Source: the human T2T-CHM13v2.0 reference genome, Homo sapiens. From it: a stretch of DNA of 64,000 nt. Positions 61,697-64,000 of the stretch are shown one piece after another (the first letter of the stretch is position 1; the number at the start of each line of letters is the position of its first letter). The translations under genes and the position numbers were made by a program. Location: NCBI RefSeq assembly GCF_009914755.1, contig NC_060933.1, one strand, 5' to 3'. The notes under the pieces are model-generated. The model was given only the letters and a program-made list of their open reading frames with translations. It ran no database searches and was not told the origin of the DNA.

Positions 61697-62041
61697 TCTA
61701 ACTTTTATTATCCAGAAGGGATATCAGAGACCAAGTTAGACAGACCATTCCCTCCAGAGAGAAGTGCTCCCTCATGCCCCTACACACTGGCTAGTGCTTC
61801 CCATCAGGTGCTCAAAAGGCCTGACAGCCCTCAACACCATCTGGGATTCTAGATCTGTGTGACAGTTTCCTGAGTGACATCCCCTCTGCCTCCTGCCCCC
61901 CATTAGAGGGCAGGACCATGTCTGCCTCCATGAGTGCTGACCTCCCGGGCCTGACAGAGCAGCCCCTGATGGACAAGAGACTCCCAGAGAAGGAAGGCCC
62001 CAGCTGCCAGAGAGACCCCAGCAGGCAGGCCCCAGGCTCAC

Positions 62042-62454
62042 CGGTTCTTGCCCGTCTCGTCCTGGAAGATCTGGTCGCAGTAGGCCATCATGCGCTCCGT
62101 GAAGGTGTACACCTGCAGGCCGGGGTACATCCTGGTGAGCTGCAGCAGCGTGCGGTAGGTGCGGCCGCCGAGCACCCGGTCCATGTGCCTGCCCTGGCCC
62201 CACACCATGTAGAGCGTGTCTCGGGCCTTCTGGAAGTAGTGTGAATAGTTGCGCAGCAGCAGCGGCACGCTTGTGTGTGAGACGACACGCAGGGTGCTGC
62301 GCTGGCCCACATCCGCCTCAAAGCCCACGGTGGGCGCCTGGTTCATGCGGAACACGCACTCGGCACTGTCGATCTCAGCACCCAGGCCTGAGCCCAGCAT
62401 TTGGCCGGAGCTGGACACCACGGCACAGCTGCGGCAGGGCTCGCGGACCAGCGG
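62042..62454 (-). CDS. ST6GALNAC4: ST6GALNAC4 coding exon, sialylmotif L (PLVREPCRSCAVVSSSGQMLG...DETGKNR), 413 nt; upstream exons lie beyond the window
   Basis: Sialylmotif L; GCAG|CCG acceptor, CG|GTGAG donor. Confidence 0.97.
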
Positions 62455-63076
62455 CTGCAGGGCAGGCAGGGAGAAAGAGACAGAGAGGCATGAACACGCA
62501 GCTTACACCCCCTGCAGCTCCCCCTGGAATATCCACCAATCTTGCTTGATCAGGTATCGGCTTGAAGGACTGTTATGAACCCATTTTGCAGGCTGGGCAG
62601 CAGGGATGACTTTCCCGAGATCACAGTGATACCCAGTGTCAGAGCTAAGGTTCTGCACTCAGCCCCCACTTCCTCATCAGCCATATTTGTGGTCCTTATT
62701 CCTGTTGCTGCCTCTGAGGCCCTGTCTCTACGTAATGAGTCCTTATGAGGTTTGCTTGAGCAAATAGTTATAAAACACTTAGAACAGTGGCTGGCGCAGA
62801 CTGGAGGTCATATAAGTATTTGTCAAGTAAACATGAACCTCAGCTCTTCAGAATCATTCTTAGGCCACTCCCTCCCCTGCACATGCCTCACCCACACTGT
62901 GCCCAGTTTCTAAGTAAGAGCAGGGTCATCAGCGCCCAGGACAGCTGTGGGACTCCCTGGTCCTGAGCCTGAATCCTGGCTCTGCCCTCTCCTAGCTATG
63001 TGGCCTGAAGCCAAGTCACCGGCCTCTGTGCGCCTCAAGTCTCTCATCTATAAAATGGGGAAGAAAACAACATCTG

Positions 63077-64000
63077 GGCCGGGAGCGGTGGCTCACGCCT
63101 GTAATCCCAGCACTTTGGGAGGCCAAGGTGGGTGAATCACCTGAGGTCAGGAGTTCGAGACCAGCCTGGTCAACATGGCAAAACCCCATCTCTACTAAAA
63201 ACACAAAAATTAGCTGGGCGTGGTAGCACACGCCTGTAATCCCAGCTACTCAGGAGACTGAGGCAGAAGAATCCCTTGAACCTGGGAGGCGGAGGTTGCA
63301 GTGAGCCGAGATTGCGCCACTGTACTCCAGCCTGTTGACAGAGTGAGCTCTTGTCTAAAATAAATAAACAAATAAAAATATAAATACAAAAAAAAGAAAA
63401 AGAAAAAGAAAACAACATCTGGCCGGGCACGGTGGCTCACACCTGTAATCCCAGCACTCTGGGAGGCCAAGGTGGGTGGATCACTTGAGATCAGGAGTTC
63501 AAGACCTGCCTAGCCAATATGGTGAAACCCCATCTCTAAAAATTAACCAGGTGTGGTGGCATGAGCCTGTAGTCCCAGGGCAGGGCTAGGGCAGGCACAT
63601 GGACGGGGTGCTCGGCGGCCACACCTACTGCACACTGCTGCAGCTCACCAGGATGTACCCCGGCCTGCAGGTGTACACCTTCACCGAGCGCATGATGGCC
63701 TACTGTGACCAGATCTTCCAGGACGAGACAGGCAAGAACCGGTGGCGGGAGGCTGAAGCATGAGAATCACTTGAATCCGGCAGGTGGAGGTTGCAGTGAG
63801 CTGAGATCGCACTACTGCACTCCAGCCTGGGTGACAAAGCTAGACTCTCTCTCTCTCAAACAAACAAACAAAAAAAAACATTTCTTGGGCGGGCGTGGTG
63901 GCTCATGCCTGTAATCCCAGCACTTTGAAAGGCCAAGGCAGGCAGATCACCTGAGGTTGGGAGTTCGAGACCAGCCTGACCAACATGGAGAAACCCCATC
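63077..64000 (+). mobile_element. Three tandem Alus (63077-63412; 63421-63880 interrupted by an insertion; 63888 to window end)
   Basis: Alu consensus. Confidence 0.9.
63583..63744 (+). pseudogene. Inverted 162-bp copy of ST6GALNAC4 exon sequence (62039-62200) inserted within an Alu
   Basis: Manual alignment to the reverse complement of 62039-62200: 154/162 identical, no indels. Confidence 0.95.

What the first reader, a model, noticed from the sequence alone, without database searches (positions are those of the whole stretch)
62039..63744. Intronic inverted copy of a coding exon and its splice donor: a built-in antisense arm for ST6GALNAC4
Seen: 63583-63744 is the reverse complement of 62039-62200 (154/162 identical, no gaps, 1382-nt spacer). 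It covers the last 159 nt of the 413-nt exon plus the first 3 intron bases (GTG), so the template was genomic DNA or unspliced RNA, not spliced mRNA (which would continue GAGG). It replaces the Alu bases CTACT in GTAGTCCCAG[CTACT]CGGGAGG. The left junction shows CCAG microhomology and a repeated (C/T)AGGGCAGG, as in template-switch repair. Five of the eight differences are CpG transitions. Inference: in the minus-strand pre-mRNA the copy is made first and is antisense to the exon, so a ~160-bp duplex (3 G-U wobbles, 3 A-C, 1 C-C and 1 G-G mismatch) could form co-transcriptionally over the coding sequence and the 5' splice site. This could cause exon skipping (413 nt, frameshifting), intron retention, ADAR recoding or dsRNA sensing, giving a primate-specific cis-antisense switch. 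The pair is also a substrate for a 1.4-kb inversion and a source of read mis-mapping.
Basis: partly seen in the sequence, partly recalled or inferred. Interest (0 to 1): 0.9.

Follow-up and report, generated by a model that had tools for sequence, protein, structure and literature searches.

The report
Inverted exon copy inside ST6GALNAC4 intron
A 162-base piece of a ST6GALNAC4 coding exon, with the first three bases of the next intron, was once copied backwards into an Alu in the upstream intron; the RNA should fold into a long double strand over the splice site, but nothing yet shows that this regulates the gene.

Summary
Window 63583-63744 is the gapless reverse complement of 62039-62200 (154 of 162). 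That source is the last 159 nt of ST6GALNAC4 exon 4 plus GTG of its donor. The copy fills an unmasked gap inside an Alu of the upstream intron. These are the only two copies in T2T-CHM13.

The junctions show no target-site duplication and no poly(A). Five Alu bases are lost, CCAG is shared at the left junction, and a 10-nt stutter follows it. This fits an in-cis template-switch or snap-back repair patch.

The copy decays as neutral DNA: 5 CpG transitions, and a stop plus three missense changes in the exon frame. All 4 testable changes are derived in the copy. A rough age is about 20 million years, with a wide margin.

In silico the arms form a -362 kcal/mol duplex that buries the 5' splice site. 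An Alu-Alu fold across the exon is equally stable and excludes it.

All 4 RefSeq transcripts keep the exon, and no paper found mentions the structure. The structure and its origin are supported; the "switch" is untested. It is a new member of a known kind, of moderate interest.

The parts
62039..62200 (-). Source arm: the last 159 nt of ST6GALNAC4 coding exon 4 (62042-62200) plus the first 3 intron bases (62039-62041, GTG on the sense strand).
   Evidence: The residues encoded here are conserved in orthologues.
62042..62454 (-). ST6GALNAC4 exon 4 of 6 in NM_175039.4. It is 413 nt, wholly coding, and present in all 4 RefSeq transcripts over the locus.
   Evidence: RefSeq annotation read; translation.
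62036..62044 (-). 5' splice site CCG|GUGAGC of exon 4. Positions -3 to +3 lie inside the duplex.
   Evidence: The unpaired probability of the GU is 0.002 and 0.16 with the copy free to pair, and 0.86 and 0.92 with the copy blocked.
63583..63744 (+). Inverted copy. It reads as sense on the + strand, so it is antisense in the minus-strand pre-mRNA. It shares 154 of 162 bases with the source and lies in intron 3, 690 nt below the upstream donor and 1128 nt above the acceptor of exon 4.
63574..63595 (+). Left junction. The Alu ends in CCCAG. Then comes GGCAGG, followed by GCTAGGGCAGG. This gives 4 nt (CCAG) shared with the source and a roughly 10-nt stutter. Bases 63579-63582 do not match the source in register.
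   Evidence: Sequence read.
63745..63745 (+). Right junction. One G matches neither the source intron nor the two other Alus at this point. It is either an untemplated base or a later substitution. Shared bases at this junction number 0 to 1.
63421..63578 (+). Left part of the host Alu, up to the break.
   Evidence: Masked-repeat interval 63349-63582; alignment with two other Alus as they stand.
63746..63878 (+). Right part of the host Alu with its A-rich tail, resuming after the insert.
61251..61702 (-). Downstream Alu block in the opposite orientation to the Alus at 63039-64307. It pairs with them across the exon and competes with the arm duplex.
   Evidence: Inverted repeats I2-I8. The free fold of 61200-64000 holds 381 Alu-Alu pairs and 0 arm pairs.

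Best explanation
This is a fixed scar of a single DNA repair or replication template-switch event in a primate ancestor.

Origin. A break arose inside an Alu of ST6GALNAC4 intron 3. I infer that the 3' end of the + strand (ending CCCAG) folded back onto the same strand 1.4 kb away, at CCAG/CTGG in exon 4. It primed there, stuttered once, and copied 162 nt across the exon end up to 3 nt into the next intron. The new end was then joined to the other side of the break with almost no shared bases, and 5 Alu bases were lost. The copy has since decayed as neutral DNA for very roughly 20 million years.

Consequence. The gene is on the minus strand, so the copy is transcribed first and is antisense to the exon's 3' end. 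A 162-bp, 95% matched duplex that hides the exon's 5' splice site is therefore the predicted fold of the nascent RNA.

My reading is that this duplex forms on part of the transcripts. It would be a nuclear substrate for ADAR and for RNA helicases. It would be resolved by unwinding, by splicing or by the competing Alu-Alu fold. At most it would cost some splicing speed or yield. I see a by-product, not a tuned switch.

What is shown and what is inferred. The anatomy, the direction of copying, the neutral decay and the fold predictions are shown. The repair pathway, the age and everything about living cells are inferred.
For: Structure:
- 154 of 162 bases match without gaps, and only two copies exist in the genome.
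- The insert lies in an unmasked gap of an Alu and replaces 5 bases that two other Alus have.
- There is no target-site duplication and no poly(A). CCAG is shared and a stutter follows at the left junction. One odd base sits at the right junction.
- These are the features listed for class 2 templated insertions (PMC5110952, passages). The geometry matches the four-point template-switch model, in which a fragment is replaced by the reverse complement of a nearby one (PMC5453318, passages). It also matches snap-back synthesis in cis (PMC4912351, passages).

Direction and decay:
- The exon residues Q153, R159, R164 and R167 are kept in 4 of 4 readable mammalian orthologue fragments. The copy has a stop, G, H and C at these sites.
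- All 5 CpG differences keep the CpG in the exon.
- The spacing of the differences fits a random scatter. The longest identical run is 50 nt, and 41% of simulations reach that length.

RNA:
- The arm duplex has -362 kcal/mol.
- 157 of 162 in-register pairs appear in the minimum-energy fold of three nested stretches that stop before the downstream Alu.
- The mean pair probability is 0.96 in the nascent RNA from 64433 to 62000. The donor GU is buried there.

Against a strong effect:
- 4 of 4 RefSeq transcripts include the exon.
- The competing Alu fold is equally stable.
Against: - The insert is far longer, and its template far more distant, than typical events of these classes. The median polymerase-theta insert in PMC4912351 is 7 bp, and the four-point model was built for short local switches.
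- The right junction shows no microhomology.
- The evidence for a genomic rather than an RNA template at the junction is only 3 bases. A spliced-mRNA reading matches 4 of 5.
- No outgroup genome could be examined, so the single-event history and the age are inferred.
- No RNA data were available (reads, editing tables, cross-linking). A real effect on splicing or editing is therefore not excluded.
- A 160-bp near-perfect duplex over an active donor is unusual. In the catalogue of PMC8052449, structures over highly used splice sites are depleted. That could mean this one matters.
Confidence: 0.6

Rival explanations
1. One reading: a selected, lineage-specific cis-antisense switch. The duplex is used to tune ST6GALNAC4 by hiding the donor (exon 4 skipping with frameshift, or intron retention), by ADAR recoding, or by dsRNA sensing.
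For: - The duplex is very stable and buries the donor in the nascent RNA.
- All 32 of 32 adenosines of the exonic arm face U and sit at codon positions 1 or 2, so any editing would recode.
- The 3 A-C mispairs place the A in the intronic arm.
- Structures over active splice sites are generally depleted (PMC8052449), so this one is an outlier.
- There are two near-isoenergetic folds, arm duplex versus Alu-Alu. That is the architecture a switch would need.
Against: - 4 of 4 RefSeq transcripts keep the exon.
- The 8 differences are uncompensated and look like CpG decay.
- Searches of ST6GALNAC4 with 'RNA editing' (4 papers), 'ADAR' (9), 'inverted repeat' (0) and 'splicing' (45 found, 30 listed) gave nothing on this structure, judging by titles and abstract starts. 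Supplementary tables were closed.
- Exon-intron duplexes are removed by splicing, so they are unlikely to reach cytoplasmic sensors (PMC11838218, section 10).
Confidence: 0.08
2. The structure is the same but the origin differs: an RNA-templated patch. A piece of nascent, unspliced (or spliced) ST6GALNAC4 RNA was reverse-transcribed and used to fill the break, as proposed for class 2 templated sequence insertions.
For: - The junction features match class 2 events: a microdeletion, microhomology, a possible untemplated base, no target-site duplication and no poly(A).
- The break lies inside the transcription unit, so its own nascent RNA was nearby.
- The spliced reading matches 4 of 5 bases beyond the exon end.
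- A processed pseudogene on chr13 shows that this mRNA has been reverse-transcribed in the germ line.
Against: - The bases after the exon end read GTG, as in the genome, 3 of 3.
- If the right end had primed on RNA, microhomology would be expected at the right junction. None is seen. The microhomology and the stutter are at the left junction.
- None of the 8 differences is A>G in the sense orientation, so there is no trace of an edited RNA template.
- An inverted copy of the same strand 1.4 kb away is what a fold-back on DNA gives without further assumptions.
Confidence: 0.15
3. The structure is inert in cells: the duplex essentially never forms. Proteins coating the nascent RNA, fast co-transcriptional splicing, helicases and the flanking inverted Alus pre-empt it, so the copy has no RNA-level consequence at all.
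For: - With the downstream Alu block included, the minimum-energy fold holds 0 arm pairs and 381 Alu-Alu pairs across the exon. Forcing the duplex costs only 1.7 kcal/mol.
- The exon is constitutive in RefSeq.
Against: - The exon arm is transcribed about 340 nt before the downstream Alu block begins.
- Up to that point the duplex dominates the ensemble, with mean pair probability 0.96 and 157 of 162 pairs.
- From my own knowledge, much weaker inverted Alu pairs are known to be edited in nuclear RNA. A 162-bp helix with perfect runs of up to 50 bp would therefore be expected to form at least sometimes.
Confidence: 0.25
4. An assembly artefact, or a rearrangement private to the CHM13 genome.
For: None found. 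The only point in its favour is that no second assembly could be consulted here.
Against: Eight differences with a CpG-decay pattern, including a stop codon in the copy, mean long independent evolution of the two arms. A recent duplication or a mis-join would be identical. The host Alu continues cleanly on both sides.
Confidence: 0.02

Closest known systems
Template-switch mutations (four-point model) that create inverted repeats and RNA hairpins. Sources: Loytynoja and Goldman 2017, PMC5453318, passages read. Related work seen only as search listing and abstract starts: PMC8794818, PMC7954356 and bioRxiv 10.1101/2023.04.19.537475.
   Same: A short target fragment is replaced by the reverse complement of a nearby fragment of the same locus. 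The result is a perfect inverted repeat, which later decays, and a hairpin in the transcript.
   Different: Those events are short and local, and the authors say they do not model long-range switches. Here 162 nt were copied from 1.4 kb away, the source is a coding exon with its donor, and the target is an Alu.
Class 2 templated sequence insertions, and polymerase-theta snap-back inserts at double-strand breaks. Sources: PMC5110952 and PMC4912351, passages read.
   Same: No target-site duplication and no poly(A). There is a microdeletion, microhomology at one junction, a possible untemplated base, and a copy made in cis in inverted orientation.
   Different: Class 2 inserts are described as coming from distant loci and from RNA. 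Snap-back inserts have a median length of 7 bp. This one is 166-167 nt and comes from 1.4 kb away on the same strand.
Exon-intron duplexes that guide ADAR editing (editing-site complementary sequences, for example at the GRIA2 Q/R site; recalled, not read here).
   Same: An intronic stretch pairs with coding sequence in the pre-mRNA, and the helix exists only before splicing.
   Different: As I recall them, known examples are short, imperfect, conserved helices, mostly with the complement in the downstream intron, and have one or a few specific sites. Here the helix is 162 bp and near-perfect, and it is a young duplicate in the upstream intron. Editing is not shown.
Catalogued long-range pre-mRNA structures. 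Sources: dsRNAscan (Andrews and Bass 2025, PMC11838218; abstract and sections 9-10 read), PHRIC 'mixed' exon-intron structures (PMC10691357, passages) and conserved complementary regions (PMC8052449, passages).
   Same: Same class of object. Non-repetitive predicted dsRNAs occur at about 2 per Mb. Of 2,018 dsRNAs over 300 bp and over 96% paired, 58 overlap coding exons, and all but one of the exon-overlapping ones (58 coding plus 45 lncRNA) pair an exon with an intron. There are 1,190 RIC-seq-supported 'mixed' structures.
   Different: At 162 bp it is below the 300-bp cut of the 'long' set. It is far stronger than PHRIC structures: the median there is -23 kcal/mol and only 106 mixed ones lie beyond -30, against -362 here. 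The conserved-region catalogue excluded exons and repeats by design. Whether this pair is listed in any of these resources could not be checked, because supplements and web resources were closed.
Stem-loops that hide a 5' splice site (MAPT exon 10, SMN2 exon 7; recalled, not read here).
   Same: The donor lies inside a helix, which should hinder U1 binding.
   Different: As I recall them, those are local hairpins of about 6-20 bp with shown effects on splicing. This is a long-range 162-bp helix with no splicing data, and the exon is constitutive in RefSeq.

Membership tests
Template-switch mutation (four-point model) | A target fragment is replaced by the reverse complement of a nearby fragment of the same locus. 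| tested here: met
   About 166 nt at 63579-63745 replace 5 Alu bases. 162 of them are the gapless reverse complement of 62039-62200.
Template-switch mutation (four-point model) | Short-range, local switch-and-return (tens of bases). | tested here: not met
   162 nt were copied across a 1382-nt spacer. The authors state they do not model long-range switches.
Template-switch mutation (four-point model) | A single event, visible against an ancestral or outgroup sequence. | not testable with these tools
   No primate genomes were available in any collection offered.
Snap-back or microhomology-mediated end joining insert | Microhomology at the junctions. | tested here: inconclusive
   Left junction: 4 nt (CCAG) plus a roughly 10-nt stutter. 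Right junction: 0-1 nt and one unmatched G.
Snap-back or microhomology-mediated end joining insert | Insert length of a few to tens of nucleotides. | tested here: not met
   166-167 nt here, against a median of 7 bp in PMC4912351.
Class 2 templated sequence insertion | No target-site duplication and no poly(A); a microdeletion, microhomology or an untemplated base at the junctions. | tested here: met
   compared with the feature list in PMC5110952.
Class 2 templated sequence insertion | Template is a distant locus, copied via RNA. | tested here: not met
   The template is 1.4 kb away in the same gene. Whether it was RNA or DNA is undecided: GTG matches 3 of 3, the spliced reading 4 of 5.
L1-mediated retrocopy or processed pseudogene | Target-site duplication, a poly(A) tail and a spliced template. 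| tested here: not met
   There is no duplication and no A-tract at the insert ends, and the Alu loses 5 bases. The true processed pseudogene of the gene is on chr13, is 75-87% identical, and is not the source.
ADAR editing-site complementary sequence | An intronic stretch base-pairs with the exon in the pre-mRNA. | tested here: met
   In silico only: -362 kcal/mol, 157 of 162 pairs in the minimum-energy fold, mean pair probability 0.96.
ADAR editing-site complementary sequence | A-to-I editing observed in the paired exon. | not testable with these tools
   No reads or editing tables were available. Main-text searches found nothing. Supplements were closed.
Splice-site-occluding pre-mRNA structure | The splice site lies inside a stable helix. 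| tested here: met
   In silico only: the donor GU has unpaired probability 0.002 and 0.16, against 0.86 and 0.92 when the copy is blocked.
Splice-site-occluding pre-mRNA structure | Alternative use of the occluded site or exon. | tested here: not met
   4 of 4 RefSeq transcripts over the locus contain exon 62042-62454 with this donor. RefSeq is a curated subset, so rare isoforms are not excluded.
Inverted Alu pair (IRAlu) dsRNA | Both arms are Alu sequence. | tested here: not met
   Both arms are unmasked: masked fraction 0.0 and 0.006. The copy is only embedded in an Alu. True inverted Alu pairs flank the exon as well.

The most novel reading that the evidence does not exclude
The inverted exon copy acts as a primate-lineage cis brake on ST6GALNAC4. 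On nascent transcripts the 162-bp helix competes with the Alu-Alu fold. The balance would be set by ADAR and helicase levels and by transcription speed. It would decide how much pre-mRNA uses the exon 4 donor, is hyper-edited (every editable exonic A recodes) or is retained in the nucleus. Sialyltransferase output would then be coupled to the cell's dsRNA-handling state.
Probability: 0.08. Interest if true: 0.75.

Novelty: new member of a known kind. Interest (0 to 1): 0.4.

Why it matters
If the duplex forms in cells, this is a natural and unusually clean test case. It is a single, datable repair event that gave a widely used coding exon its own antisense partner, without any transposon complementarity.

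It would let one ask four things:
- how the nucleus handles a 162-bp near-perfect helix over an active splice donor;
- how far ADAR edits coding sequence when offered such a helix (32 of 32 exonic adenosines would recode);
- how it competes with flanking inverted Alus;
- what such scars cost.

There is also a practical point. The pair is a trap for variant and editing calls. Six of the eight arm differences look like A>G or T>C when exon-derived reads are placed on the copy. The middle 50 nt are identical, so reads of 50 nt can match both arms.

ST6GALNAC4 is of medical interest. A paper seen only as a search listing and abstract start reports that it makes a glycan engaged by an immune checkpoint receptor (PMC10089186). 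That paper does not bear on this structure.

Tried and rejected
- Retrocopy origin: rejected. There is no target-site duplication and no poly(A), and the chr13 processed pseudogene ST6GALNAC4P1 is only 75-87% identical.
- Gene conversion between the arms: no sign. The longest identical run is 50 nt, and 41% of random placements reach that length.
- Edited-RNA template: no A>G among the 8 differences in the sense orientation.
- Known RNA family: 0 Rfam matches at gathering score in 61200-64000.
- Other copies in the genome: none. There is only a weak 55-nt, 82% hit on chr16 in a repeat-rich stretch, which I did not pursue.
- The 43-nt inverted match at a ST6GALNAC6 splice site looked like a second case. 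On reading, it is a pair of short SINE-core-like fragments; that label is from recall.
- Literature: ST6GALNAC4 with 'RNA editing' (4 papers), 'inverted repeat' (0), 'ADAR' (9) and 'splicing' (45 found, 30 listed) gave nothing on this structure, judging by titles and abstract starts. 'Editing complementary sequence' with 'inverted duplication' and 'exon' gave 0. The statement 'not in print' rests on these searches of main texts only. Supplementary tables of editing sites, dsRNA catalogues and RIC-seq structures may list it and were closed.
- Dating with primate genomes was not possible, because no collection offered holds them. The Alu subfamily was not assigned, because that needs a consensus, which I neither built nor typed.
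- Rarity survey: 100 random 10-kb regions around internal coding exons of chr9 were planned, and only 20 were fetched. In these, 0 of 138 coding intervals (alternative isoform intervals counted separately) had an inverted copy within the region. All 90 hits were direct tandem-repeat matches in two regions. The sample is too small for a rate.
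Full report
OBSERVATION. Arms 62039-62200 and 63583-63744 are 162 nt long with a 1382-nt spacer, and 154 of 162 bases are identical without gaps. RefSeq places ST6GALNAC4 on the minus strand, with exon 62042-62454 (413 nt, wholly coding, exon 4 of 6 in NM_175039.4) and the next upstream exon at 64434-64619. The source arm is therefore the last 159 nt of exon 4 plus the first three intron bases, GTG on the sense strand. The copy lies in intron 3, which runs from 62455 to 64433. It is transcribed before the exon and is antisense to it.

A search of the whole T2T-CHM13 genome with the exon finds only the exon itself, the copy (95%, E = 5.6e-66) and a weak 55-nt hit on chr16. A self-comparison of the window finds no other non-masked self-match of at least 100 nt with at least 90% identity. 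In 20 randomly chosen 10-kb regions around chr9 coding exons, 0 of 138 coding intervals had an inverted copy nearby. One hundred regions were planned, and the rest could not be fetched.

WHAT IT IS. The copy fills the only unmasked gap (63583-63743) between two masked repeat intervals. I aligned the host element with two other Alus of the window, as they stand. The host continues on both sides of the insert and lacks 5 bases (CTACT) that the others have at that point. The insert is 166-167 nt. At its left end, 63579-63582 do not match the source in register. At its right end, one G (63745) fits neither the source intron nor the other Alus.

The left junction reads CCCAG GGCAGG GCTAGGGCAGG. The source reads GCCAGGGCAGG at that place. 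So CCAG is shared between the Alu end and the source, and about 10 nt were copied twice. There is no target-site duplication and no A-tract.

This is the signature listed for class 2 templated insertions at repaired breaks: a microdeletion, microhomology, an untemplated base, no target-site duplication and no poly(A) (PMC5110952, passages). The geometry is that of the four-point template-switch model, in which a fragment is replaced by the reverse complement of a nearby one (PMC5453318, passages). It is also that of snap-back synthesis in cis (PMC4912351, passages).

The new + strand is complementary to the + strand 1.4 kb upstream, and the microhomology and stutter are at the left junction. 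The simplest path, which I infer, is as follows. The resected 3' end of the + strand folded back on itself, primed at CCAG, copied 162 nt, and was then joined to the other end with little or no homology.

The event is far larger than typical ones. The median insert in PMC4912351 is 7 bp, and the authors of the four-point model exclude long-range switches. I therefore file it as working like these events, not as a typical member.

TEMPLATE: DNA OR RNA? The next exon begins GAGGC, and the copy continues GTGGC. The genomic reading matches 3 of 3 bases and then fails. The spliced reading matches 4 of 5. On these bases alone the call is weak. The case for a genomic, in-cis template rests more on proximity, inverted orientation and the position of the microhomology. 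None of the 8 differences is A>G in the sense orientation, so there is no trace of an edited RNA template. The gene's processed pseudogene on chr13 is spliced and 75-87% identical, and it is not the source.

DIRECTION AND AGE. The 8 differences are 5 CpG transitions (CpG kept in the exon each time), one other C>T and two C/G transversions. Read in the exon's frame, the copy has Q153stop, R159G, R164H and R167C plus four silent changes. In 4 of 4 mammalian orthologue fragments that can be read at these sites, the exon's residues are kept. A fifth, P0034, is frame-shifted there and was dropped. So the exon is the source and the copy is drifting. The differences are scattered as expected by chance, with no sign of gene conversion.

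The exon arm has 13 CpG and the copy has 8. The three other changes fall on 136 non-CpG sites, which is 2.2%. I used recalled round figures: about 1e-9 substitutions per site per year, and about ten times that at CpG. Both counts then point to roughly 20 million years. From the small counts alone, the range is a few million to over 50 million years.

The host Alu keeps 5 CpG in 268 nt, against 9 and 17 in two other Alus of the window. It therefore looks older than its insert. 'Primate-specific' follows from the Alu host only. No primate genome could be consulted.

RNA STRUCTURE. As RNA, the two arms pair with -362 kcal/mol. Each arm alone folds with -61 and -52 kcal/mol. The helix has 154 Watson-Crick pairs, 3 G-U, 3 A-C (with the A in the intronic arm), 1 G-G and 1 C-C. 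The longest perfect run is 50 bp. Minimum-energy folds of the minus strand over 62000-63800, 62000-64000 and 61703-64000 each contain 157 of 162 in-register pairs.

In a partition-function fold of the nascent RNA, from the start of intron 3 (64433) to 41 nt past the donor (62000), the mean probability of the in-register pairs is 0.96. The donor GU is unpaired with probability 0.002 and 0.16. With the copy barred from pairing, these values are 0.86 and 0.92. The ensemble energies are -1162 and -885 kcal/mol.

The exon is also bracketed by inverted Alus: 61251-61702 against 63039-64307. When the downstream block is included (61200-64000), the free minimum-energy fold has 0 arm pairs and 381 Alu-Alu pairs across the exon. 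Forcing the arm duplex costs only 1.7 kcal/mol out of about -1420. In a nested fold the two states exclude each other, and in energy terms they are a toss-up. By order of transcription, the arm duplex comes first.

WHAT IT DOES. Shown: the anatomy and the predicted folds. Inferred: everything in cells. I think the helix forms on part of the nascent transcripts. From general knowledge of ADAR and dsRNA helicases, it would be edited and unwound in the nucleus, and it may slow use of the exon 4 donor.

The arguments against a strong or selected effect are these. All 4 RefSeq transcripts over the locus keep the exon with this donor. The mismatches are uncompensated. Exon-intron duplexes are lost on splicing and so do not reach cytoplasmic sensors (PMC11838218, section 10).

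The arguments for keeping the question open are these. Structures over highly used splice sites are depleted in human genes (PMC8052449). Also, all 32 of 32 adenosines of the exonic arm face U and sit at codon positions 1 or 2, so any editing would change the protein.

COMPARISON AND NOVELTY. The kind of object is known. dsRNAscan predicts 5.1 million dsRNAs, with non-repetitive ones at about 2 per Mb. Of 2,018 that are over 300 bp and over 96% paired, 58 overlap coding exons, and nearly all exon-overlapping ones pair an exon with an intron. RIC-seq-based work lists 1,190 'mixed' exon-intron structures with a median energy of -23 kcal/mol. Template switching is known to create RNA hairpins (PMC8794818, listing and abstract start only).

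This instance is below the 300-bp cut and was excluded by design from the conserved-region catalogue. It is not mentioned in any main text found. Supplements and web resources that may list it were closed. I rate it a new member of a known kind. It is a striking and well-defined example whose function is open.

PRACTICAL CAUTION. Exon-derived reads misplaced on the copy would show T>C or A>G at six of the eight differing sites, which mimics A-to-I editing. Copy-derived reads placed on the exon would show C>T or G>A. Reads of 50 nt can match both arms perfectly, while 100-nt reads differ at 3-6 sites.

VERDICT. The origin by an in-cis, inverted templated repair event is well supported. Duplex formation is supported in silico only and has an equally stable competitor. 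The regulatory 'switch' is untested and, on present evidence, unlikely (about 0.08). Interest 0.4.

Noticed in passing
window 61251-61702 versus 63039-64000 (continuing to about 64307 beyond the window): Exon 4 of ST6GALNAC4 is bracketed by Alus in opposite orientation, with inverted repeats of 63-123 nt at 75-88% identity. In the 61200-64000 fold they pair across the exon (381 pairs). From general knowledge, this is the layout linked to exon looping and circular RNA.
   Followed up: partly
window 63063-63076 and 63408-63421: A 14-nt exact direct repeat flanks the Alu at 63077-63337 and its A-rich tail. This is its target-site duplication. That Alu landed right at the 5' end of the host Alu, so the host Alu was there first.
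   Followed up: yes
window 63638-63651, minus strand: The antisense copy places a donor-like CUG|GUGAGC on the transcribed strand inside intron 3, downstream of an antisense Alu arm. No RefSeq exon uses it.
   Followed up: partly
window 47774-47815 and 48433-48475: A 43-nt inverted match (91%) spans the 3' splice site of a ST6GALNAC6 exon (47614-47798). On reading, both sides look like short SINE-core fragments; that label is from recall.
   Followed up: partly
window 57937-57976: A perfect 17-bp G+C-rich hairpin with a 6-nt loop lies in the ST6GALNAC4 3' UTR.
   Followed up: no
window 20239-20279 and 21162-21202: A 41-nt direct repeat (97.6%) lies in an AK1 intron. The second copy ends 24 nt upstream of exon 21226-21342. 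It is not masked as a repeat.
   Followed up: no
window 15276-15668: A TG-rich imperfect tandem array (units 73-78% alike) lies just beyond the 3' end of AK1.
   Followed up: no
L004 (chr13:19013900-19015300): ST6GALNAC4P1 is a spliced (processed) pseudogene, 75-87% identical to the parent exons. The stretch matching the arm region is largely missing.
   Followed up: partly
P0034 (bat orthologue prediction), alignment A1: This predicted protein reads the second half of the exon in a shifted frame. It looks like a gene-model error, and I dropped it from the residue check.
   Followed up: no
L010 (chr9:149340303-149350302) and L020 (chr9:148899988-148909987): In the control regions, coding intervals labelled MAN1B1 consist of roughly 80-nt tandem repeats, and an EGFL7 exon end is repeated as a 28-nt tandem array in the adjoining intron.
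   Followed up: no
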